DNA from: Octopus sinensis
Lineage: Eukaryota
NCBI RefSeq assembly: GCF_006345805.1
Contig: NC_043018.1
Coordinates: 29,016,001-29,080,000, forward strand
DNA length: 64,000 nucleotides
Reading direction: 5' to 3'
Of the stretch, positions 4,507 through 62,083 are shown in pieces. The notes below the pieces were generated by a model, which ran no database searches, was not told where the DNA came from, and saw only the letters and a program-made list of their open reading frames with translations. The first letter of the stretch is position 1. Every line of letters begins with the position of its first letter. The position numbers were made by a program, and so were the translations under genes.

Positions 4507-6731
4507 ATGTCGAGAAATTGTATTGTAGAACGCTGGTCGCGTTCCTTTATGGACCAACATTCTCCTAGTCTGGAAACGCTAGGAGAAGACAAAAAGAACT
4601 CATGCACGCAAAGTGCAAGCCTGAATGACGTGGCAGTGAACGCTGCAACCACTTGCGATAACAGCACTGTCACCACCACCACTAACAACAACACCAACAA
4701 GACTACTACTGCCACCACCACCGCCTCCACCACCACCACCGCCTCCACCACCACCACCACCACCACCGCCACCTCATCCACTACCTCAACTACCAACAAC
4801 AACAACAATAACAATGACAACAAGAATAACAACAATTGCGCCACAATTTCGACATCTGCTGCCACGGCTGTCTCTTCTGCCACTGACACCACCGCCAACA
4901 CAAACAACAAAACAACAATTCCGTTCAGACCTTGTTTCCTCCAACAACAAAAACTGAAGGGAATAAACAAAAAACTGTGACCACCAAACAAATTGACAAA
5001 AGCTGCTTGAATACAGGGATAAACTATGCAAGTAATTTTCCACCCCTTCCTACTTGCACAATCAAACCAAATACACCGATTTTACCAACTGCAGCCAACA
5101 ATAACATCACCACCAGCAACAACAATAACAAAACAACAACAAATTTCGCCGAGACGATAAAAGAAAAAAGACAACAGTACATGTTACTGCACAACAAATA
5201 AAAGACACGGACATTTTAATAACGGAAGTAGATGGTATAGTAAAAATAAACATACCACAAGAAATATTAGAAAATGAAAAAAAAGAACAATTATATATAA
5301 AATAATTAATAAGAAAACAAAAAGTCCAGAGAAGGCTAACACAAGCAAAATCGAAAAATGCTTGAAACCCATCTGGAACTACAAAGAGTATGTGACCTGG
5401 TGGAACAAGTTCGCACACATACAAGTGGTCTTCCACACTGAAGATTTAGCAAGACGTTTCTCAACGCTAACTCTTCATTCAGATGAACTGCAACTAACAC
5501 CAAGCTATCGTGGACAGAAAGTGACTAAGATCACATTAAACAATGTCCCAAAAATAGCGAACAATCTATGGCTAGTAAAGGCCTTATGTGTGAAAATGGA
5601 AGATTTCACAATTTTAGGAACTACAGTCACGGAGCACAAAAACTAGGTGGGAAAAAAAGTAGAATTTCTACTACACATCAACCAGGATGATATCAAGAAA
5701 ATACCCACCCAGATATGTGTATCAGAAGACCACAAGTTGTATGTGGTCGTCGATGGCAGAAGACTACGTTGCTACATATGCGGCAGTGAGCAACACCTAA
5801 AAAAAGACTGCAAATATGCCGCAAGAAAACTACAGCAACGACGACAGCAGCCGGAAAAAACAAAAAAGCCAGCTTTACTACCCACACCACAAATTGTACA
5901 AACAGGACTAATCACAGAAAATAAAAAAACAAACCTCACCAACCAAACAACCACACCAACTGCACCAAGAACAGAAGCAACACCACCAACAACAACAACC
6001 AAGAATAAACCAACTCCCAAACCAAGGACATCTGCCAAAAAGACACTCATCGAAAATGAAGAAACAATTACTACTCCAAATCCCCACAAAATTGACACCC
6101 CAAACAACACAACAATACCTACAATCACTCAAACACAAAATACCCACACCCCACCTCCAAAACCGCATACACCACAACCTAACGCTCACCAACCAACACC
6201 AACAACAAAATCAACACAGTCTACAATAGACCCCAATATTTTCCCTCTCCCAAGCTCTGATTCCTCTGATTTGTCATTAGACGAAGAATACACAGAAGAT
6301 TGGCAAATAACCACAGGGGGAGAAGAAAAAGGGTAAAAAAAGAAAAGAAAAGATAACAAACAAAGCAGGAAGATACACCACTCCCGAAACAAAAACATCC
6401 ACAGAAAACAAACACATCAACACAAACACACCATCATCAAACCCCCCAACAATGTTGACAGCCATGAACACAAACAACCACGACCTAATGGAACACATTA
6501 GGTCAAACACCAACATAACTGAAAACGACATAAAAACAAATAACCACCCATGCACAACACCACCACAACACATTAAAATAATACACGTAACACAAAACAC
6601 ATAGAGCACCCTGAAATCTCTTTACCCTGATGCAGTAGGGAGATTTCAAAAATATTCATCCAAGAAACTATACAAAAACCTCATGGAATAAGACTGTGAG
6701 GTGAAAAACAAAGGACTTTCGAACAAGTAAC
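4507..6731 (+). pseudogene. Tx1-like ORF1 (gag-like, zinc knuckle), disrupted
   Basis: Pieces 4507-4980, 4932-5201, 5362-5646 and 5647-6336; CYICGSEQHLKKDC = C-X2-C-X4-H-X4-C; Thr/Asn/Pro-rich flanks; stops and frameshifts. Ends approximate. Confidence 0.8.
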
Positions 6732-6797
6732 CTTTTCTCTCTCTCTTTCCTTTTTTGCACTTTCTTTTCGTGTGTAAAACACAATTTTTATCGGAAC

Positions 6798-9700
6798 ATG
6801 CTCAGAATAGGCAGTATAAATGTACGTGGCTTGGGGTCGCCTTGGAAACAAGGCTACCTGTTAAATGACATCAAGTCACTAAATCTGAATATCATAGCCA
6901 TCAGTGAGACCAGACTACACAGCTCGCGGGCACTCCAGCACAGTTTCGGTACACATTTCAACACTTATTTTTCTCCGTGTCTACCGAGAATGGGCGGAGG
7001 TGGCACCGCGGTGCTTCTCCTGAAGAGTCTGGATCTCAAAGTAAGAGCAATTTTCCTAGACTGGTCGTTTTGGATATCGATGGCAGCAATGAGTGTGCTT
7101 TTCGACTGATAGCAGTTTATGCTCCGTCCTTAACAGGCCGACTAGATTTCTTTCGACGTCTAGAGTCTTTCATGGGAACGTCTCGTCCTTTACTTTTAGT
7201 GGGGGGATTGGAATTCCACCCTGCACACGCATCTAGACTACGTGAGCAGAGATAGCAATAGAAGGGGATGCAAATGCCTCAAAGACCTGCTCAGACGTTT
7301 CCAACTGTCTGACAGGTACCGACTGGACCACCCGAATGTGCCAATGTGGACATGGAGTAACCGCATCGGGTCGTCCAGATCATACTTAGATAGAGTATTC
7401 TGTAGAACAATAGATAAAAATAGTGTAGGTTGTCCACAATTTCATATAGTCAGTTACACAGATCACAAGTTTGTGACTTGTACACTTGACTTAGATAAGA
7501 CACATAGGCAGGGTCCTGGTTACTGGAAACTGAACGCGTCTTTTACAGCACGACAGGTTTACAGGGACCGGATCAGCACATTAGTTAAGAGAGCGTTGAC
7601 GGGTACCATCATCAACAACAGATGGTGGTATGCCCTAAAAAAAGCAATTAAAGCAGAATCGGTCAGATACAGTAAAGCCCTAGCATTAGACCGAAATAGA
7701 ATAGAGGGAGAATTAGTTAAGGTTTTAGAAGAGGCACTTAGAACTGGCATCGCGTCCAACGTGCTGGCGGCGAGATTGGCCCTCGACCAACACCTGAACG
7801 CCAAACACGAGGGATGCGTTGTCAGAGCTAGGATGCGTGCTCTGAGGAACGAAGGAGTTGGAGCCGCCCAAGAGGCCCGTTTGGTGGAGGTGCAACGAGG
7901 CAACAGAGCCACCATCAAGTCTCTTATAAATGAACAGGGGCGCGAATTGCTCGAGCCTAAAAGGATGTGTGGGGCTTTTCAACAACACTTCATCCAACTG
8001 TTTGGGACAAGTGGTGGGTCAGAATGCAGAGTGGACTTTAGTGCCTACCTGCATGCCTTTCCACGACTCTCAGCAAGAGAGGTGGAGTCTTGTGAAAGGC
8101 CTATCACAGCGGCGGACGTACAGGATGCGATGGGGGCGCTGCGCGAGAGACAAGTCACCAGGCTTGGATGGTCTGCCCTACGAACTTTATTGTCATATGC
8201 CAGACTTGTTTGGAGGCGTCTTGGCAGCTGTCTACTGCAACTGGCAGCAAAACGGGAGTATTCCTGCTTTTGTAAAGCGAGGAGCAGTGGCACTGATTAA
8301 GAAAGACCCAAACAAGGGGGACGTCATAGATAATTTCAGGCCCATCACTCTGCTCAACGCAGATTTGAAAATTTTGGCCAAGGTGTTAGCCGAGAGGTTG
8401 GCGCTTGTCATCAAGAAACTAATCGACAAGGCGCAAACATGCGCCGTGCCGGATAGAAGTATTCATGACAGCCTCCATAATGATGCGCTACATCATAGAC
8501 AGGGTAGTTAAGAATCCTGGCATGGGTGGGGCGCTGATCAATTTGGATCAATCAAAAGCTTTCGATAGGGTAGACCATCACTACTTCGAGGCTGTCCTTA
8601 AAGCGGCTGGTTTCGGTCCAGTTTTCCGCGGTTGGATCGCTGCCTTATACAGCGGCATCCGCTCAGTAGTTCGCGTAAATGGTCATCTATCTAGACCTTT
8701 TAACATCATGCGTTCGGTTCGTCAGGGATGCCCCCTCTCATCGCTGCTGTATGTATTGACTCTTGAGCCACTACTGCGGAAACTGGCGACGCTGAGGGGC
8801 ATCCCACGAGAGCTGGGATGCGGGAGGAGCGTGTCTGCATACGCAGATGACGTCACCGTCATAGTGTCGAGCTACGAGCACGTCGAGCTACGAGCACATC
8901 GAGCTGGTCGGCGAGACACTAAAAGAATACGAAGCGGTAACGGGAGAAAAAATTAACCGGGAAAAGTCAGTGAGCTTGCGGCTCGGCACCTGGAGAGGCA
9001 GGCCCATGCCGTCCAACAGCGTCTCCATCGTGGGACGCTGGACGGACGGACCGGTTAAATTGCTCGGGGTCTGGTTCGGTCCGGACCTCCAAATGGAGAA
9101 GAACTGGGGCGAGATAACGACTAGGGTGGCTACTCTCACCCAGAAATGGGCTGAGAGAAGGCTATCCCTGAAAGGTCGGGCGGAGGTGGCGAACGCGTAC
9201 ATCGCATCCGTCATCGACTATCGTCTGACCGTTGTGCCTTGTCCCGACCCTACCATCACCAAACTGGAACGTATACTCTTCCGCTTCTTGTGGAAGGGAA
9301 ACGTTCCGATGGTTAGGCGATCCATTTGCTGTCAACACCCGCTAAATGGAAGGCTGGGCATGCCGTGGTTGATGATGCGCAGACATGCGCTGAGACTGCG
9401 ACATCTCCGGCGCTTCATAGACAACGCTGAACAGGTGTGGTCGCCTTTTGTGCGGCGCGCTTTACCGCAGCTCGTCTCCTTGGACGAACTACAGTCATGG
9501 ATCAAGCAGGGACCGAGGCTAGGCGAATGGCACCGCGAGTGTCGCGTTGCTCTCAAGCAACTCTGCCGTCCGGGATCGAATTTGTGCGACTCCATCACAA
9601 CAAAGACATTCTATAGAGGATTAGTGGAGGGGAGCTGCGACGACGAACTCGGGCAGAGTCTGGGCGTCGACGAGGAACACCTGACCCGCCTGTTCAGGAC

Positions 9701-10241
9701 AACTTTCGGGCCGGGACCTATGAATAATCACCAAAGATCCCTGGCCTGGCAGTGCTATCGAGAAGCATTACCTGTTCGTGTTAAGCTCTACAGACACGGA
9801 TCCAGACACACTGGACCGACTTGCCCGAGATGCGGTCAGAGCGACGAAACCGTTCTGCACGCACTCGTGCAATGTCCAACCATTTCAGACCTGTGGGCTT
9901 ATGCCGAACGGCTGCTGTCACGTGTGGGACGTATCCGCCTATCGGCCGAGTCTATCGTGGGAGTTGTTCCGCCCCCTTCCCTCAACCGGGAAGGCAAGGC
10001 AGTTTTCATCGTACTGGTGGCCATGGTGAAAGAATGTGTGTGGTGGACCCGAGCGAAAGAATTAGAGACAAACACTTACCTCTCTGGCCAATCGCTCATC
10101 AACTTTTTCAAGTACCACTTGAAAAGGAAGGTGAGAATGGAGAGGGAAGTTTTGTCTCGCGAAAGATTCAAAAAAAGATGGGTGAATGTTGCAAAGATGG
10201 TGCGTGCGAGCGACGAAACCATTTTGAGCATGATCTTGTAG
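6798..10241 (+). pseudogene. Tx1-like ORF2 (AP endonuclease, reverse transcriptase, C-terminal CCHC), frameshifted
   Basis: GSINVRGL, ISET, YLDR, TDH (APE); KSPGLDG, FRPITLLNAD.KI, DQSKAFDRV, RQGCPLS, YADD at 8840 (RT); CPRC-X8-H-X4-C. About five frameshifts, including a 16-nt tandem duplication at 8866-8897. Confidence 0.93.
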
Positions 10242-10580
10242 ATCGTAAAAAAGAAAGAGAGAGAGCATTTTGCTCTCATGTGGTTATTTCCTCCCTGACT
10301 GAGGTTCCCGTGGTCTTTTCTGTAGGCTTTTCTTCCCACGGATGAGCCCAATCTTGTTTTATCAATGTTTTTATCATTGTTTCTGTGATACACGATTTCT
10401 TTTCTTTCTTTTTTTCCTCCTCTCGATCCCTTTTGATCGCAATCTTACATTTATTTTCTTTTTTTCCACCCTCGAAAAGAAAAGCTCTACATTTGGTTTT
10501 GTCCCCTCTGTATTCAGCCCTGTGTGGCTAATAAAAGAAAGTTATCTATCTATATATATATCTATCTATCTCTCTATCTA

Positions 10581-11408: not shown

Positions 11409-12948
11409 TGTTTCTTTATTAGCCACACAGGGCTGCACACAGACAGAACAAATTACAAGGTAGAGCTTTTCTTTTGGGGGTAAAAAAATGGGGGTTGGTT
11501 TTCGATCAAAAGGGATCGTAAAAGGAAAGAAAGAGGACAAAAAAACGGGAGGATTTAAAAAAAGGGGGGGAGAGGAAGAAAAAAGTTGATCAATAGGGAT
11601 CGTAATCACAGAAATGTCAATATGAAGTGTAAAGGGGAGGACAGGTGAGGTTTACCCGTGGAAAGAAAAGCCTACGGAAAAGACCACGGTAACCTCGGTC
11701 AATGAAGTCACATGTTATATTTCTTTTTTTTTTTGCAAATAAGCAACTCTCTGTATTAATTTTTACGGTTCATAGAATCATAGTAAAGGTGGCTTCGTCG
11801 TTCATACGTGCCATCCTTGCTACATTCACCCATCTTTTTTTAAAGCATTCACTAGACAAAACTTGCCTCTCTACTCTCATTTTCCTCTTCAAGTGATACT
11901 TGAAGAAGTTGATGAGAGATTGACCAGAGAGGAAAGTGTTTGTCTCTAATCCTTTCAGACGCGTCCACCAGATACATTCTTTCGCCATAGCCACAGTATG
12001 ATAAAAATAGCTCTTCCTTCCGTTTGAAGGAAGGAGGGCGTGGAAGATATTAACGATAGACTCGGCTGATAAACCGACACGTCCCACACGTGACAGCAGT
12101 CGTTCGAAAAAGCCCACAGGTCGGAAATTGCTGGACACTGCACGATTGCGTGCAGAGGTTTCGTCGCTCTGCCCGCATCTCGGGCAGGTTGGCCCCGTGT
12201 TTCTCGAGCCATGCTTATAGAGCTTATCCTGAACGGGTAGCGCCTTCTCGGTAGCACCGCCAGGCCATCGATCTCTGGAAGTTGTCCATAGGTCCCGGGC
12301 CGAAAGTCGTTGATTGAAGAGGCGGGTCAGGTATTCTTCGTCGACGCCCAGGTTGCCCCGAGATCGTCGTCGTACCTCCCCTCCACTAATCCCCTATAGA
12401 ATGCTTTGGTTGTGTTGAAGTCACTCAAAATCGACCGGGACGGCAGAGTTGCTTGAGAGCAACGCGACACTCGCGGTGCCATTCACCCTTCCTCGGCCTC
12501 TTTTTGATCCACGACTGCAGTTCGGTCATGGAGACGAGTGCGGGAATGCGTGCCTCACAAACGGCGACCACACCTGTTCACCGTCGTCTACATAGAGCCG
12601 GAGATGTCGCAGTCTCAGCGCGTGTCTGCGCATCATCAACCACGGCATGCCAGCCCTCCTTTTAACGGGTGTTGACAGCAAATGGATCGCCTGACAATCG
12701 GGACGCATCCTTTCCACAAGAAGCGGAAGAGAATGCGTTCTAGTTTGGTGATGGTAGGGTCGGGACAAGGTACGACGGTCAGGCGGTAGTAGATGACGGA
12801 CGCGATGTACGTGTTCGCCTCCTCCGCCCGACCTTTTAGGACAGTTTCCTCTCGGCCCATTGCTGGGCGAGAGTGACCACCCTACTCGTATCTCGTTCCA
12901 GTTCTTCTCCATTTGGAGGTCCGGACCGAACCAGACCCCGAGCAACTC
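11409..12948 (-). mobile_element. 5'-truncated Tx1-like LINE, related subfamily, copy A
   Basis: ORF2 C-terminal homology to 8970-10241 with many 1-nt indels; 3' end agccctgtgtggctaataaag; (GATA)n on both sides. Confidence 0.92.
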
Positions 12949-12992
<44 letters not shown>

Positions 12993-13115
12993 GATAGATA
13001 GATTGATGGATAGATGGATAGATGGATAGATAGATAGACATATATATATATATATAAATGATAGATGGATAGAGAGATAGATAGATAGATGGATATATAG
13101 ATAGATAGATAGAGA

Positions 13116-14653
13116 TGTTTTTATTAGCCACACAGGGCTGCACACAGACAGAACAAATTACAAGGTAGAGCTTTTCTTTTGGGGGTAAAAAAATGGGGGT
13201 TGGTTTTCGATCAAAAGGGATCGTAAAAGGAAAGAAAGAGGACAAAAAAACGGGAGGATTTAAAAAAAGGGGGGGAGAGGAAGAAAAAAGTTGATCAATA
13301 GGGATCGTAATCACAGAAATGTCAATATGAAGTGTAAAGGGGAGGACAGGTGAGGTTTACCCGTGGAAAGAAAAGCCTACGGAAAAGACCACGGTAACCT
13401 CGGTCAATGAAGTCACATGTTATATTTCTTTTTTTTTTTGCAAATAAGCAACTCTCTGTATTAATTTACGGTTCATAGAATCATAGTAAAGGTGGCTTCG
13501 TCGTTCATACGTGCCATCCTTGCTACATTCACCCATCTTTTTTTAAAGCATTCACTAGACAAAACTTGCCTCTCTACTCTCATTTTCCTCTTCAAGTGAT
13601 ACTTGAAGAAGTTGAGAGATTGACAGAGAGGAAAGTGTTTGTCTCTAATCCTTTCAGACGCGTCCACCAGATACATTCTTTCGCCATAGCCACAAGTATG
13701 ATAAAAATAGCTCTTCCTTCCCGTTTGAAGGAAGGAGGCGTGAAGATATTAACGATAGACTCGGCTGATAAACCGACACGTCCCACACGTGACAGCAGTC
13801 GTTCGACAAAAGCCCACAGGTCGGAAATTGCTGGACACTGCACGATTGCGTGCAGAGCGGTTTCGTCGCTCTGCCCGCATCTCGGGCAGGTTGGCCCCGT
13901 GTTTCTCGAGCCATGCTTATAGAGCTTATCCTGAACGGGTAGCGCTTCTCGGTAGCACCGCCAGGCCATCGATCTCTGGAAGTTGTCCATAGGTCCCGGG
14001 CCGAAAGTCGTTTGAAAGAGGCGGGTCAGGTATTCTTCGTCGACGCCCAGGTTTGCCCCGAGATCGTCGTCGTACCTCCCCTCCACTAATCCCCTATAGA
14101 ATGCTTTGGTTGTGTTGAAGTCACTCAAAATCGACCCGGGACGGCAGAGTTGCTTGAGAGCAACGCGACACTCGCGGTGCCATTCACCCTTCCTCGGCCT
14201 CTTTTTGATCCACGACTGCAGTTCGGTCATGGAGACGAGTTGCGGGAATGCGTGCCTCACAAACGGCGACCACACCTGTTCACCGTCGTCTACATAGAGC
14301 CGGAGATGTCGCAGTCTCAGCGCGTGTCTGCGCATCATCAACCACGGCATGCCCAGCCCTCCTTTTAACGGGTGTTGACAGCAAATGGATCGCCTGACAA
14401 TCGGGACGCATCCTTTCCACAAGAAGCGGAAGAGAATGCGTTCTAGTTTGGTGATGGTAGGGTCGGGACAAGGTACGACGGTCAGGCGGTAGTAGATGAC
14501 GGACGCGATGTACGTGTTCGCCTCCTCCGCCCGACCTTTTAGGGACAGTTTCCTCTCGGCCCATTGCTGGGCGAGAGTGACCACCCTACTCGTTATCTCG
14601 TTCCAGTTCTTCTCCATTTGGAGGTCCGGACCGAACCAGACCCCGAGCAACTC
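13116..14653 (-). mobile_element. 5'-truncated Tx1-like LINE, copy B (tandem duplicate of copy A)
   Basis: 352-aa ORF 13592-14650 is collinear with the ORF2 C-terminus; same truncation point as copy A; (GATA)n flanks. Confidence 0.93.
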
Positions 14654-17047: not shown

Positions 17048-17280
17048 CGTTTCTTTATTACCCACAAGGTGGCTAAAGATAGAGGGGACAAACAAGGACA
17101 GACAAACGGATTAAGTCGATTACATACCGCCAGTGCGTAACTGTTTCTTATTTTATTGACCCCGAAAGGATGAAAGGCAAAGTCGACCTTGGTGGAATTT
17201 GAACTTAGAACATAACGGCAGACGAAATACGGCTACGCTTTTCACCCGGCGTGCTAAAGATTCTGCCAGCTCGCCGCCGT
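17048..17280 (-). mobile_element. SINE family B with 15-bp TSD
   Basis: TSD tcgggagggtcatta at 17033-17047 and 17281-17295. Confidence 0.9.
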
Positions 17281-55493: not shown

Positions 55494-55735
55494 ATGGTTG
55501 TATACTGTCAATCTAACAAGAACGTGACAGTAGGGGGTACACCACCGTTATATAGCCCTAGGAGGCATCGAACGCCTCCTGACAGCTTCGACACATTTTA
55601 TCCTGTGTCCTTATATACACATACGAAGGGGAGACAAACACCCCCAACCGCCGGAACTGCATCTAGGGACACCGTGTTTCAGGATCATTGTCCTTCATCG
55701 GCCTAGAGTAGCAGACACCGGTCAGCTGGCGATAT
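55494..55735 (-). mobile_element. Hammerhead-bearing non-coding repeat interrupted by the ORF1-only element (probably continues at 57462-57510)
   Basis: Homologous to 33787-34075; split at the 11-bp TSD. Confidence 0.7.
55662..55707 (-). ncRNA. Minimal type I hammerhead ribozyme (U4C)
   Basis: tctagg CCGATGA agga-caatga-tcct GAA ACACGGTGT C cctaga. Confidence 0.78.
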
Positions 55736-57450
55736 TATATCTTTATTATGGGCACGATGGCCCGAATGAAGACGAGACATTACAAGACGGAACGTGGGGT
55801 ACATAAAGTAAAAATAAAATATGAAATAAAGATGAATTATATGTAATGAGATACAGTTCCGTTTAAAATACAATTTTACATTTTATACTTTTACAATTTA
55901 CAATTTTACATTTTAACATTACATATATTCCAGTTCAAAATACAATTTTACATTTTACAATTTACAATGTTACAATTTAAAAATCTCAGTTCTATTGGAC
56001 GTTGGTCCGTAATGTACTTTGTCAACTCCATTTGCTCCACCACATTTGGCAAATTCTGATAACATACGTAATACGTTGAATAAACCTGCTCAAACATACT
56101 TTTGAAATTACAAAATGTTCCTTTATCTACAAGTACCCCTTTCATATCGTCATCATGGAGTTCTGGGTGTAATTTAACCCTAATTAATCCCTTCCTACCT
56201 GCAAGTCTTTTCTCCACTTCTGTGTCTTTCACATATAACATCAATACTTTCAGATATTTTCCTTCAGGTCTTTTTCCTTTTTTACATGCATCCAACTGTT
56301 CTCTCACTTTTTTGCTCCATTCTAAGTGTACCTCTGTCATCGTCTATTCGTCCTTTTCTTTGCACCTTCTCTCTTTTTCTTCTGTTATCTTGCTTTTGGT
56401 TTTTTTCTTCTTTAGAACTTTCGGTGGTGATTCCACCCTTGTTCTCTTCCTATCTCCTGTTCTTTCCTCCTCTGCGCTTGAACGTTCTTCTTCCATATCC
56501 TCATTTAGCTGCTCCTCCGTTTGTGCCTCCACTGCTTTCGTTTCCTCCTGCACTTCTCCCTCCTCCACACACGCATCTTTACACTCCTCTATTACAGCCT
56601 CCGTTGCTTTCGTTCTTTCCAGCGGGCACACATCCTTCATGTGGCCCCTTAATTTACAATGATAGCAGACTGGGGGGTCTTCCCTCTACCACGACTCTAA
56701 GCCGTGTCTCATCAGGGAAGACCAACTCCTCCGGGATGTTGTACAGGTCTCGCACGGTTATATGTGCCAGTACCTGCACCGTATATCCCCACCACTTAAC
56801 CTCTGTTGACTTCTCCACCTTCAACACCTCCACACTTTCCTTGCAGTTAAAAACTACTGCCGCCAATAACCTCTCCATGTTCATTTCGGGCGAAATTCTA
56901 CCAATTCTTATCCTCACTGCCCTCCTTCCACAGTAACTTGGTAGTAACGTCCAACTATCCGTTTTCAAAATTCTTGTTGCATTCTTTCTTGCTTCATTTT
57001 CAGTTTTAAAATATACCACCACTGTGGCATATTACCTTCCTCTTTTGAAAAATGTGGGTTCACCCTCAATTTCCTTCAGACACTTTTCTACTTCTTCCGT
57101 TTCTGCTACTTCTATTTTTTTCGACGCCACACACCATGTCCTGTACGTTATCATTCGCTTCTCCGCGTTGTTTTCTTCTTCCTCGGACGGTGTGACTCTC
57201 ACGCAGTCACCCTCCCTCTTCAAACTGTCGAAATACTTCTCTAGAGTTTTCTGTTCGACCACCACTTCTTCCATTTCCAGTTCACTGGCAACTAGGCCTC
57301 TACCTGCTGCTCTCGCATAAGTCTGCTCTTGCATTTTCAAAAATCTCCCCAAAAAATTTTCCACGTCCTCCAGCAACGAACTCGAACTCACAACCTCTTC
57401 ACAATGACGCACTCGAAACGAACACACCAGAATAACCCCAAAAAAAGGAG
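55736..57450 (-). mobile_element. ORF1-only ('half-LINE') Tx1-like retroelement with 11-bp TSD
   Basis: TSD gctggcgatat at 55725-55735 and 57451-57461; single ORF1; 3' end gggc-catcgt-gccc at AATAAA, like the Tx1 tails; no endonuclease or RT. Confidence 0.82.
55948..57334 (-). pseudogene. Tx1-like ORF1 with CCHC knuckle; two stops and one frameshift
   Basis: VVYFKTENEARKNATRILKTDSWTLLPSYCGRR...LRVVVEGRP/VCYHCKLRGHMKDVC aligns with VVFHTEDLARRFSTLTLHSDELQLTPSYRGQK...LYVVVDGRRLRCYICGSEQHLKKDC of the 4.3-kb LINE. Confidence 0.82.
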
Positions 57451-57525
57451 GCTGGCGATATCTGTCTGGACTTCGTATCTGTATATATCTATAGTCAGTG
57501 AAGTCAATATTTCTTATATATATTA

Positions 57526-57587
<62 letters not shown>

Positions 57588-57588
<1 letters not shown>

Positions 57589-58440
57589 CCCCTTGATCAC
57601 CTTGTCCTACCAGTCCGTCAGGCGTCCATTTGACACCGCTGGTCATAGCACGCTGTCCACTCCTCTCTGGATCGCACCTTTCTCATCCACGTGATCCCAA
57701 TCGTCCTCCTGAAATCGTAACTCCACCGTCGTGGAGGTCTTCCGGGTGGTCTTTTCCGCTCGCGCGGGTACCACTCGACAACTGCGTGGGTCCACCGATT
57801 ATCGGTGAGCCGGGCGACGTGTCCAGTCCATCTAAACTTGCTGCGTGTATACTCTGCGATGACATCTCTCACGCCGGACTTCTTTCTGATGATCTCGCTA
57901 CTGATGTGCTCTCTCAACGAGATATCAAGCATTGACCTTTCCATGGCTCTTTGAGCCGTTATCAGTCTTTGCTCTTCTATCTTTGTGGTATCCCATGTTT
58001 CATTACCATATAACATTGCAGGCAGAACTACATTGTTAATGAGGTTGGTGCGGGTGGTCCTGTCCAACCTTCCCTTGAGCACATCGCTCTAGAGTGCTAC
58101 TGGTAACATGTAATCCAGTACAACCTGTTGCATGGTCGGGACGTCGGTGACTAAACTGACAACCCCACCAGGTTCGCTTGCTGAGGAGGGTGCTGTTGAC
58201 TCCCTGTGGGATGGAAAAATAAGACCCAACAAAGGGCGGATGAACTCCTGAATAGTCAACGGCCATCCAACAAAATGCCGGCTTGCCCGCCCAGCCAGTG
58301 GGATGGCGTCATCTTAGGACTAAAACAGCACGAAGAACGAAGAGAAAAGGAAAAGGGCCTCAGTACCCTGCACGTCAATCGGGCCACTCCATGACGACGG
58401 TGGAGTGCAACTCGAGCGACGAGAGGCTGCTAAGAATCAC
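57588..58440 (-). mobile_element. RTE-clade element: RT C-terminus and 3' end (57588-58082) joined to a non-coding, 5'-UTR-like segment (58083-58440)
   Basis: LPAMLYGNETW, RWTGHVAR..DNRWT, KRPPGRPPRRW; short repeated tail caaggtgatcaaggggat; (AT)n on both sides. Confidence 0.82.
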
Positions 58441-61330: not shown

Positions 61331-61515
61331 GACAATAATTGTATTTCAGAATCTATTACCCCTTTCCTTCCTACTGTCATTGAAACTGCGGCCATGCTGA
61401 TGCACCACCTTGATGGGTTTTCATTGAACAAATCGAATCAAGTACCTGTTTGTTTTTAATTATTCTATTCATGTCGTTTAGCGAACCCCTAATTTAGTAT
61501 CGCACGTTCAGTCCA

Positions 61516-62083
61516 TCAGGACTTCCTGCTGTCACCTATTCTGTATATGTTGGCTTTCGAGCCACTGCTGCGGAAGTTGGAACAATGAAGAGGCCTCCCT
61601 TTCGAAATTGGACTCGGGAGGGCAGTGTCGGCGTACACTGACGACGTCCCAGTTATTGTGTCGGACGCTTCTGAAGTGGAATCGGTCGTCTCCATTGCAA
61701 GGGAATGTGAGGCGGTTGCAGGGGCCAAAATCAACGACGACAAGTCTCTGGGATTGCGACTGGGTCCCTGAAGAGGCAAATCGATGCAGTCGGACGCTGG
61801 ATAAAAACTGAGAATGGGTGACGAACATGTTGGCCTGTCTTTAGTAGAGAGGAAATTGTCCCAGACAGGTCGGGCAGAGATGGTGAATTCCTACATCGCA
61901 TCTGTCATTATTTATCTTCTGATTGTCGTGCCTTGCCTCAGTTACTGCCATGTACTATGTATACTGCCCTTCTGTTAATGTCTACCATGAATACTTTTTT
62001 CCATTATGTGTGAGGACCCATACTTTATGTTTGTATTTGTATTGTACCATTTCAACCTTCTCCCTGGTGGTAAATAAGAGAAA

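What the first reader, a model, noticed from the sequence alone, without database searches (positions are those of the whole stretch)
55725..57461. ORF1-only 'half-Tx1' retroelement with its own TSD
The 1.7-kb element is bounded by an exact 11-bp TSD, so it inserted as a unit. It has a short 5' UTR, one ~460-codon Tx1-type ORF1 with a CCHC knuckle and an extra ~130-aa C-terminal region, an AT-rich spacer and a Tx1-like stem-loop/AATAAA end. No ORF2 trace is visible. This parallels mammalian HAL1 (half-L1). A Tx1-derived equivalent that supplies its own ORF1 and borrows ORF2 in trans may be undescribed.
Basis: partly seen in the sequence, partly recalled or inferred. Interest (0 to 1): 0.75.

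Follow-up and report, generated by a model that had tools for sequence, protein, structure and literature searches.

The report
Site-specific ORF1-only LINE relative, decayed copy
This is a broken copy of a small jumping gene that carries only the RNA-binding half of a LINE retrotransposon; its family is old and diverse, lands at exact target sequences, stacks head to tail, and likely borrows its copying enzyme from full-length relatives.

Summary
The 1,715-bp element (window 55736-57450, minus strand) and its exact 11-bp flanking repeat are real. This copy is dead: its ORF has two premature stops and one frameshift.

It belongs to a family in which the ORF1-only layout is the rule. In the own genome, 63 of 74 DNA matches span the whole unit. 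ORF2 follows none of the A-like ORF1s at 12 diverged loci, and it lies near none of 30 sampled family-type 3' tails. At least 16 of 60 whole units keep a 439-460-aa ORF. Median dN/dS is about 0.2, and the youngest copies on different chromosomes are 98-99% alike.

- **Site specificity.** Copies sit at one site (ATATCACCAGC) of a foldback-like repeat: 20 exact filled junctions against 121 exact empty sites. Other subfamilies use other exact targets.
- **Arrays.** Copies pile up in head-to-tail arrays.

The ORF1 protein is homologous to ORF1 of abundant autonomous LINEs in the same genome that encode endonuclease, reverse transcriptase and zf-RVT. These LINEs share a short hairpin-AATAAA 3' tail with the element. 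Trans-mobilisation by such an ORF2 is inferred; no donor that shares the target was found.

Verdict: a new variant of a known kind (like HAL1 and HeT-A), of moderate to high interest.

The parts
57451..57461 (-). Upstream copy of the target-site duplication (ATATCGCCAGC in element orientation)
   Evidence: Exact 11-mer. It is the same site as in other copies, and empty sites exist.
57335..57450 (-). 5' UTR (116 nt), beginning with a T-run whose length and lead-in differ between subfamilies
55981..57334 (-). ORF1 remnant. It aligns to intact 451-aa P0001 at 85-89% aa identity. It is broken by stops at 57032-57034 and 56344-56346 and by a frameshift between 56654 and 56676.
56687..57154 (-). Region matching residues ~61-216 of the intact protein; predicted to form two RRM-like beta-alpha-beta-beta-alpha-beta units (low confidence)
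   Evidence: AF2 secondary structure, pLDDT 50-77. The top Foldseek hits are all tandem-RRM proteins, best E 9e-4. 33% identity to ORF1 of autonomous LINE-X.
56626..56667 (-). CCHC zinc knuckle, CYHCKLRGHMKDVC
   Evidence: Pfam zf-CCHC is below the family cut-off in intact relatives (13.8 and 18.6 bits against 20.8).
55981..56328 (-). C-terminal domain (residues ~336-451 of the intact form): a long helix plus a ferredoxin-like beta-alpha-beta-beta-alpha-beta domain
   Evidence: AF2 on 18 natural sequences gives pLDDT 85 and pTM 0.77. dN/dS is 0.33. No clear solved relative was found.
55850..55980 (-). AT-rich repetitive spacer (TGTAAAATTGTAAA-like units) in the 3' UTR
55736..55800 (-). Conserved 3' tail: hairpin GGGCCATCGTGCCC (55750-55763), AATAAA (55742-55747), then GATATA with no poly(A)
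55725..55735 (-). Downstream copy of the target-site duplication
55497..55724 (-). Host repeat, the part downstream of the target site (foldback-like repeat bounded by TA-rich microsatellites)
   Evidence: The same flank follows 19 of 30 copies. Host structure.
57462..57510 (-). Host repeat, the short part upstream of the target site

Best explanation
This is a decayed copy of a 1.7-kb non-LTR retroelement family that encodes only an ORF1-type RNA-binding protein and inserts at one exact site of a foldback-like repeat. Because it has no reverse transcriptase or endonuclease gene, it would be copied in trans by the ORF2 protein of an autonomous L1/Tx1-like LINE of the same genome.

Shown:
- The family's standard form has no ORF2.
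- Target duplications of 9-18 bp, matching empty sites, a constant 3' junction and a variable 5' junction.
- Head-to-tail arrays whose units are separated by one copy of the target.
- Several subfamilies, each with its own exact target.
- Purifying selection on all parts of ORF1.
- 98-99% identical copies on different chromosomes.
- ORF1 homology, and a shared hairpin-AATAAA 3' tail, with autonomous LINEs that encode endonuclease, reverse transcriptase and zf-RVT.

Inferred:
- The element's RNA is likely coated by its own ORF1 protein.
- The 3' tail is likely what a borrowed ORF2 protein recognises.
- Integration would be by target-primed reverse transcription at a precise bottom-strand nick.
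- Arrays would grow because each insertion regenerates the target on both sides.
For: Family form:
- Own-genome DNA search: 74 matches from 40 scored of 244 candidates; 63 of 74 span start <=69 to end >=1570 of 1,715.
- Protein search: 95 matches from 94 scored of 21,246 candidates, forming a continuum from 100% to 52% identity over residues 1-446, many without stops.

No ORF2:
- Across 44 loci holding copies, ORF2 matches occur only in L069/L074 (a separate LINE) and as a weak fragment in L018.
- At 12 of 12 diverged loci, no ORF2 follows the A-like ORF1.
- 0 of 30 sampled tails (of 158 in the genome) have ORF2 within 1.5 kb, and 30 of 30 have A-like ORF1 upstream.

Insertion signatures:
- 19 of 30 copies are followed by the same host flank, 9 by the next array unit and 2 by other sequence.
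- Empty sites lie about 400 bp upstream in L009, L019 and L020.
- The genome holds 20 exact filled 3' junctions against 121 exact empty sites.
- Other targets have their own duplications: an 18-bp duplication inside a LINE tail that is uninterrupted in 19 other copies, and further targets.

Selection:
- Median dN/dS is 0.19-0.20 over 78 pairs of 13 intact ORFs.
- By region it is 0.07-0.33.
- At least 16 intact ORFs among 60 whole units.

Recency: pairs on different chromosomes are 98-98.9% identical.

Relatives:
- P0001 against LINE-X ORF1: 33% identity over 233 aa, E 2e-35.
- LINE-X ORF2 has Exo_endo_phos, RVT_1 and zf-RVT.
- Shared tail.
- All 18 A-like ORF1s form one clade, support 99/98.
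Against: - No ORF2 donor was identified. LINE-X, the abundant young relative, uses a different target (AACTGAATACTC) and is only 33% identical in ORF1.
- No autonomous LINE ends at the family's main target among the 20 exact junctions.
- None of the 30 sampled loci with the A1-type tail holds ORF2.
- Only 3 autonomous ORF1s were in the tree, so an autonomous member nested in the A clade is not excluded.
- The 3' hairpin is short: single-sequence z-scores run from -0.5 to -2.6, and RNAalifold found no consensus pairs on the MAFFT alignment.
- Intact ORFs were picked for the dN/dS estimate, which removes stops but cannot by itself produce a ratio of 0.2.
- Transcription was not shown.
Confidence: 0.8

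Rival explanations
1. One-off product: a single autonomous LINE copy that lost ORF2 by deletion after insertion.
For: Only that this copy is decayed.
Against: 63 of 74 genome matches have the same ORF1-to-3'UTR layout. 0 of 30 sampled tails and 0 of 12 diverged loci have an ORF2 that belongs to the unit.
Confidence: 0.01
2. Passenger of a DNA transposon. The unit sits in a foldback-like repeat and was multiplied mostly when that repeat moved or duplicated, not by its own retrotransposition.
For: 19 of 30 copies share the same host flanks. The host repeat is itself multi-copy and palindromic. Two loci on different contigs give identical statistics, so some DNA-level or assembly duplication exists.
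Against: - There are 121 exact empty sites against 20 exact filled ones.
- At the same site the duplication length differs between copies (9, 11, 16 bp) and goes with different 5' ends.
- Neighbours within an array differ by 7-17% in identity to the window copy.
- Insertions with their own duplications occur in unrelated targets.
- A 98.7%-identical copy lies outside the host repeat.
Confidence: 0.07
3. Domesticated host gene family: ORF1-derived cellular genes kept in tandem clusters, comparable to L1TD1, and not mobile elements.
For: Purifying selection. Public gene models exist in four octopod species under names such as 'CCHC-type domain-containing protein'. Tandem clusters are present.
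Against: Most units are broken: at least 16 intact of 60. The units show target duplications, empty sites and LINE-type 3' tails, and copy number runs into the hundreds (158 tails). Each subfamily sits at repeat-specific targets.
Confidence: 0.04
4. The family is extinct. The ORF2 donor specific for these targets has died out, and all copies are fossils.
For: No autonomous LINE was found at the targets. The window copy is 7% away from its nearest relative.
Against: Copies on different chromosomes are 98-98.9% alike, many frames are intact, and related autonomous LINEs are 96-99% alike.
Confidence: 0.25

Closest known systems
HAL1 (half-L1) of mammals
   Same: A non-autonomous LINE derivative that encodes only ORF1p and must use ORF2p of an autonomous LINE. 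This is stated in a passage seen in PMC5753468, which cites Smit 1999 and Bao & Jurka 2010; the latter was not held.
   Different: - By that passage, HAL1 derives from mammalian L1 and arose several times independently.
- Here all 18 sampled A-like ORF1s form one deep clade, spanning 52-100% aa identity.
- The element is strictly target-specific, has no poly(A) and forms arrays.
- Its ORF1 has RRM-like units, a CCHC knuckle and a distinct C-terminal domain. From recall, not from a call, mammalian L1 ORF1p instead has a coiled coil, an RRM and a CTD.
HeT-A and other ORF1-only telomeric retrotransposons of Drosophila
   Same: These are ORF1-only non-LTR elements in head-to-tail arrays that depend on ORF2 of other families, and ORF1-only lineages give rise to new ORF1-only lineages. 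This comes from passages seen in bioRxiv 10.1101/2025.06.09.658640.
   Different: Those elements belong to the Jockey clade and extend chromosome ends. Here the relatives are LINEs with endonuclease, reverse transcriptase and zf-RVT. The arrays sit at internal sequence-specific targets and carry target duplications. A telomeric location was not tested.
Tx1 clade target-specific LINEs and their non-autonomous partners (Tx1 in Tx1D; Tx1-Mar with SINEU in Mariner-N4_AMi)
   Same: Insertion at one site of another transposon, with non-autonomous partners found at the same targets. This comes from passages seen in PMC4494074.
   Different: By those passages the partners are SINEs that carry snRNA-derived heads and a poly(A) tail. 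Here the non-autonomous element keeps a selected ORF1. No autonomous LINE sharing its target was found.

Membership tests
Non-LTR (LINE-type) retroelement insertion | Target-site duplication with a matching empty site elsewhere | tested here: met
   11-bp duplication in the window. Empty sites. An 18-bp duplication in a LINE tail that is intact in 19 other copies.
Non-LTR (LINE-type) retroelement insertion | Constant 3' junction with variable 5' junction | tested here: met
   The 3' end is always ...AATAAAGATATA followed by the target. The 5' side shows 9-, 11- or 16-bp duplications and different lead-ins.
ORF1-only non-autonomous LINE derivative (HAL1-like in the functional sense) | Encodes a homologue of LINE ORF1p | tested here: met
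   33% identity, E 2e-35, to ORF1 of an autonomous LINE. Tree.
ORF1-only non-autonomous LINE derivative (HAL1-like in the functional sense) | Family members lack ORF2 | tested here: met
ORF1-only non-autonomous LINE derivative (HAL1-like in the functional sense) | An identified autonomous partner that shares the 3' end or the target | tested here: inconclusive
   The tail motif is shared at clade level. No LINE was found with the same tail subtype or the same target.
HAL1 proper (Repbase L1-derived family) | Derived from mammalian L1 | tested here: not met
   The nearest public proteins are named by their sources as octopod proteins. The relatives are not mammalian L1.
Tx1 clade | Placement by reverse-transcriptase phylogeny | not testable with these tools
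   The element has no RT, and no reference Tx1/L1 sequences were available to place the related LINE-X ORF2. PMC13282606 Table 1 lists 'L1-Tx1' families in Octopus vulgaris, but they were not matched to the sequences here.
Tx1 clade | Sequence-specific insertion, often into other transposons | tested here: met
Tx1 clade | ORF1 of the RRM plus CCHC type | tested here: inconclusive
   The knuckle motif is present, but Pfam zf-CCHC is below cut-off. RRM-like folds come only from a low-confidence model with weak Foldseek hits.
HeT-A-like telomeric elements | Telomeric location and Jockey-clade descent | not tested
   Only the ORF1-only state and head-to-tail arrays were shown.

The most novel reading that the evidence does not exclude
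The element's own ORF1 protein, through its knuckle and its private C-terminal domain, chooses the integration site, as HeT-A Gag is said to guide telomere targeting (recalled, not from a call). An ORF1-only lineage could then evolve new exact targets without owning an endonuclease, using any related ORF2 merely as an enzyme. Three observations leave this open:
- Subfamilies of one ORF1-only clade use different exact targets.
- No autonomous LINE was found at the main target or with the A1-type tail.
- The C-terminal domain is confidently folded, selected, and not detectably shared with the autonomous LINE ORF1.
Probability: 0.15. Interest if true: 0.85.

Novelty: new variant of a known kind. 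Interest (0 to 1): 0.62.

Why it matters
ORF1-only LINE derivatives are known from mammalian L1 (HAL1) and from Drosophila telomeres. This family would add a third, independent case, in a cephalopod L1/Tx1-like clade, with two unusual traits.

First, it is a long-lived, diversified ORF1-only clade rather than a short-lived deletion product.

Second, it has exact, subfamily-specific integration sites although it owns no endonuclease. That makes an open question directly testable: in a two-ORF LINE system, which partner reads the target and which reads the RNA?

It also explains a set of public octopod gene models labelled 'CCHC-type domain-containing' or 'uncharacterized' as transposon ORF1s. 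Finally, it points to compact natural modules (a 3' tail plus ORF1) that ride on site-specific retrotransposition.

Tried and rejected
- **Adjacent RT fragment as host or partner.** The fragment at 57618-58088 (minus) belongs to an unrelated, abundant LINE that ends in (TA)n. Rejected.
- **Word-based protein search** with P0001: no hit.
- **PDB sequence search:** no hit.
- **Pfam:** only sub-threshold zf-CCHC and a spurious CDC45 match in the acidic linker.
- **Protein Atlas** on the C-terminal domain: no usable hit.
- **Earlier findings of this scan:** nothing for this genome or sequence.
- **Expression.** No RNA holder was listed. All run kinds were guesses and were kept as contigs. Short contigs of four runs, from two coded organisms, cover parts of the element at 85-99%. 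This shows neither transcription nor silence.
- **RNAalifold** on 19 aligned tails: no consensus pairs. The MAFFT alignment puts a gap inside the stem.
- **Whole-protein AF2:** poor (pLDDT 47).
- **Fold searches of the C-terminal domain:** Foldseek found nothing at E <= 0.001, and VIA-align's best Z was 4.5. Only generic ferredoxin-like domains came up.
- **hhalign** of the C-terminal profile against LINE-X ORF1: probability 0.3%.
- **Literature.** Searches for ORF1-only or Tx1 non-autonomous elements turned up HAL1, HeT-type elements and SINEU, and no description of this family. One search returned only unrelated mathematics papers. Repbase entries and subscription papers could not be checked, and Bao & Jurka 2010 was not held.
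- **L018.** I considered it clean evidence of a different target duplication. Its flanks share only a 7-mer with extra bases, so I use it only as a copy outside the host repeat.
Full report
**Observation.** The minus strand of window 55736-57450 holds a 1,715-bp unit flanked by the exact 11-mer GCTGGCGATAT, at 55725-55735 and 57451-57461. In element orientation it has these parts:
- a 116-nt 5' UTR;
- an ORF1-like reading frame that starts at 57334;
- a CCHC knuckle (CYHCKLRGHMKDVC, 56626-56667);
- an AT-rich repetitive spacer;
- a tail made of a 4-bp hairpin (55750-55763), AATAAA (55742-55747) and GATATA, with no poly(A).

The frame is not intact in this copy. There is a stop at 57032-57034, a frameshift between 56654 and 56676, a stop at 56344-56346, and the normal stop is lost. 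An ORF2 protein of a related LINE finds nothing in the unit. Eleven-mer repeats at this spacing are frequent in this microsatellite-rich window (27,049 pairs). The case for a target duplication therefore rests on the other copies.

**The family.**
- A DNA search of the window's own genome (2.7 Gb) gave 74 matches from the 40 scored of 244 first-look candidates. Of these, 63 run from position <=69 to >=1570 of the 1,715 bp, at 71-93% identity.
- A protein search with an intact natural copy (P0001, 451 aa, from L004) gave 95 matches from 94 scored of 21,246 candidates. They form a continuum from 100% to 52% identity over residues 1-446, many without stops.
- In the 54 loci I fetched there are 80 A-like ORF1 units. 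Sixty span the whole ORF, and at least 16 keep an ATG-to-stop frame of 439-460 aa.
- The youngest pairs on different chromosomes are 98-98.9% identical over 1.46-1.76 kb. The window copy is 7% from its nearest relative.

**No ORF2.**
- tblastn with the ORF2 of a related LINE (P0004) against 44 loci holding copies hit only a separate LINE in L069/L074 and a weak fragment in L018.
- At twelve loci with diverged relatives (49-63% aa identity), each fetched with 5 kb or more downstream, ORF2 does not follow the A-like ORF1. In L128 an ORF2 belongs to a further unit that has its own ORF1.
- The family-type tail (GGCCWTNGTGCCYATAATAAAGA) occurs 158 times. In the first 30 loci, 30 have A-like ORF1 directly upstream and none has an ORF2 match.

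**Site specificity and arrays.**
- Of the 30 best copies, 19 are followed by the same flank (ATATCACCAGC, then YGACCGGTGTCTGC...), 9 by the next unit of a head-to-tail array, and 2 by other sequence.
- The flank belongs to a repeat of roughly 400 bp that occurs in tandem and inverted (foldback-like) arrangements and is bounded by TA-rich microsatellites.
- Empty sites with a single copy of the 11-mer lie about 400 bp upstream of filled ones in L009, L019 and L020.
- Genome-wide there are 20 exact filled 3' junctions, all from this family, against 121 exact empty sites. The reversed-pattern controls gave 0.
- The 3' junction is constant, while the duplication is 9, 11 or 16 bp long with different 5' lead-ins. 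This is what target-primed reverse transcription, with a precise first nick and a loose second one, would give.
- Array neighbours differ by 7-17% in identity to the window copy, so they look like separate insertions, not recent tandem duplicates.

Other subfamilies have other exact targets, each with its own duplication:
- ATCTGCAGCTAGCAG and variants, at the homologous site of a diverged host repeat;
- CAGTAGCGACACCYGC, in another palindromic repeat;
- GTTTAGGTTTCCAGTC, in a roughly 50-bp satellite;
- GAACAGTGTCATATTG, in an array of six or more units on C6;
- TCCCCTCTATGTTCGCCC, inside the tail of a LINE that is uninterrupted in 19 other copies.

**Relatives.** That LINE ('LINE-X') is abundant and young: 6,176 first-look candidates, and the 40 scored are 96-100% identical.
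- A full copy (L096) has ORF1 of 438 aa (P0003) and ORF2 of 1,132 aa (P0004), with Exo_endo_phos, RVT_1 and zf-RVT domains.
- P0001 is 33% identical to P0003 over 233 aa (E 2e-35), up to the knuckle.
- LINE-X is itself target-specific and array-forming, but at a different site (AACTGAATACTC).
- A related, partly decayed LINE lies in the window at 5278-10538.

All of these share a terminal motif of about 45 nt, TGTCCCCTCT...hairpin...AATAAA. This holds for two further ORF1-only families (B and C, found in the C6 array), LINE-X and the window LINE. Fourteen variants each fold into a 3-4-bp hairpin just 5' of AAUAAA. The stem reads GGGC/GCCC in the window's subfamily and CCC(C)/GGG in others and in the LINEs. 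Single z-scores are weak (-0.5 to -2.6), and RNAalifold gave no consensus on the MAFFT alignment.

In an ORF1 tree of 24 rows:
- the 18 A-like rows form one clade (support 99/98);
- family C is its sister (98/98);
- family B groups with the three autonomous ORF1s (98/98).

ORF2 loss therefore happened at least twice, and the A clade has diversified as an ORF1-only lineage. Only three autonomous ORF1s were sampled.

**The protein.**
- dN/dS among 13 intact ORFs has a median of 0.19-0.20 over 78 pairs.
- Between the two main groups (42 pairs) it is 0.07 for the N-terminus, 0.13 for the RRM-like part, 0.11 for the knuckle, 0.26 for the linker and 0.33 for the C-terminal domain.
- The whole-protein model is poor (pLDDT 47). 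It shows two beta-alpha-beta-beta-alpha-beta units at residues 61-216, and its best Foldseek hits are all tandem-RRM proteins (best E 9e-4).
- The C-terminal 130 residues, folded with 18 natural sequences, give a confident model (pLDDT 85, pTM 0.77): a long helix followed by a ferredoxin-like domain.
- That domain has no clear solved relative. Foldseek found nothing at E <= 0.001, and the best VIA Z was 4.5.
- Its profile does not match the C-terminal part of LINE-X ORF1 (hhalign probability 0.3%).

**Distribution.** A profile search of 1.84 billion representatives found 1,022 proteins at E <= 0.001 (306 at <= 1e-10), mostly fragments. The 20 I looked up are named by their sources, where named, as uncharacterized or 'CCHC-type domain-containing' proteins of Octopus sinensis, O. 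vulgaris, O. bimaculoides and Argonauta hians. The window is thus evidently octopod. A 2026 repeat annotation of O. vulgaris lists 13 recently active 'L1-Tx1' families (Table 1 passage in PMC13282606). I saw no mention of ORF1-only elements in the passages returned.

**Mechanism.**
- Shown: an ORF1-only, site-specific, array-forming retroelement family whose ORF1 is under selection, with recent copies.
- Inferred: its RNA is bound by its own ORF1 protein. A related ORF2 protein likely recognises the shared tail, nicks the target and reverse-transcribes the RNA. Each insertion regenerates the target, so arrays grow.
- Weak point: no donor shares the target or the tail subtype. This leaves room for the bolder reading that ORF1 itself contributes to target choice.

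**Comparison and novelty.**
- In function it is like HAL1, which encodes ORF1 only and arose several times from L1 (PMC5753468 passage).
- It is also like the ORF1-only telomeric elements of Drosophila, which depend on other families' ORF2, form head-to-tail arrays and spawn new ORF1-only lineages (bioRxiv 10.1101/2025.06.09.658640 passages).
- Its targeting of another transposon resembles the Tx1 clade and its SINEU partners (PMC4494074 passages).
- It is not a member of HAL1 proper. Tx1 membership could not be tested without reference RT sequences.
- My literature searches found no description of this family. Repbase and subscription journals were out of reach.
- I rate it a new variant of a known kind.

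Noticed in passing
window 5278-10538 (+): A related L1/Tx1-like LINE. Its ORF1 is 29-34% identical to P0001 and P0003 and carries a stop. Its ORF2, in several pieces, is 45-69% identical to LINE-X ORF2. It has the same hairpin-AATAAA tail at 10481-10538, followed by a microsatellite.
   Followed up: partly
window 11797-14653 (-) and 61478-61936 (+): Further ORF2 fragments of the same LINE clade, 29-73% identical to P0004.
   Followed up: no
window 17051-17108 (-): Another copy of the clade's 3' tail motif. The element it belongs to was not examined.
   Followed up: no
window 57515-58088 (-): A 5'-truncated copy of an unrelated, very abundant LINE (3,334 first-look candidates, 92-96% identical) that ends in a (TA)n tail. 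It lies just upstream of the host-repeat fragment.
   Followed up: partly
L120 (G000:C1:75700710-75703739) and 121 sites genome-wide: The host of the element is a foldback-like repeat with long inverted arms, each carrying the target site, bounded by TA-rich microsatellites. Its own class and mobility are unknown.
   Followed up: partly
L096 / L095 / L098: LINE-X, a young and abundant autonomous LINE with both ORFs intact in L096, is itself target-specific (AACTGAATACTC in another repeat) and forms head-to-tail arrays.
   Followed up: partly
L073+L068 (G000:C6:44685000-44699300, minus) and L128: Mixed head-to-tail arrays. The C6 array holds two A units, three B units and one or more C units at one target. 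L128 holds two A-like units, a third ORF1-only unit and then an autonomous LINE.
   Followed up: partly
L132, L069, C6 array: One subfamily's 5' end carries GTCTTAGGCTTCCAGTC, which matches the target duplication of a copy sitting in a roughly 50-bp satellite (L132). This suggests that transcripts start in or upstream of the 5' duplication of a source copy.
   Followed up: no
G000:C13:3350157-3351893 and G000:C10823:27473-29209: Two loci on different contigs give identical match statistics and stop patterns. They are probably the same region assembled twice.
   Followed up: no
L153-L154 (G000:C1:194607827-194612224): Units spaced 1,375 bp apart carry the family-type tail and the C-terminal end. 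Their N-terminal ORF1 part is only 23-30% identical to P0001, so they may be a shorter or chimeric subfamily.
   Followed up: no
L129 1126-1183 (-) and 2713-2770 (+): Two family tails face each other head to head around one unit, so inverted insertions occur at palindromic host repeats.
   Followed up: no
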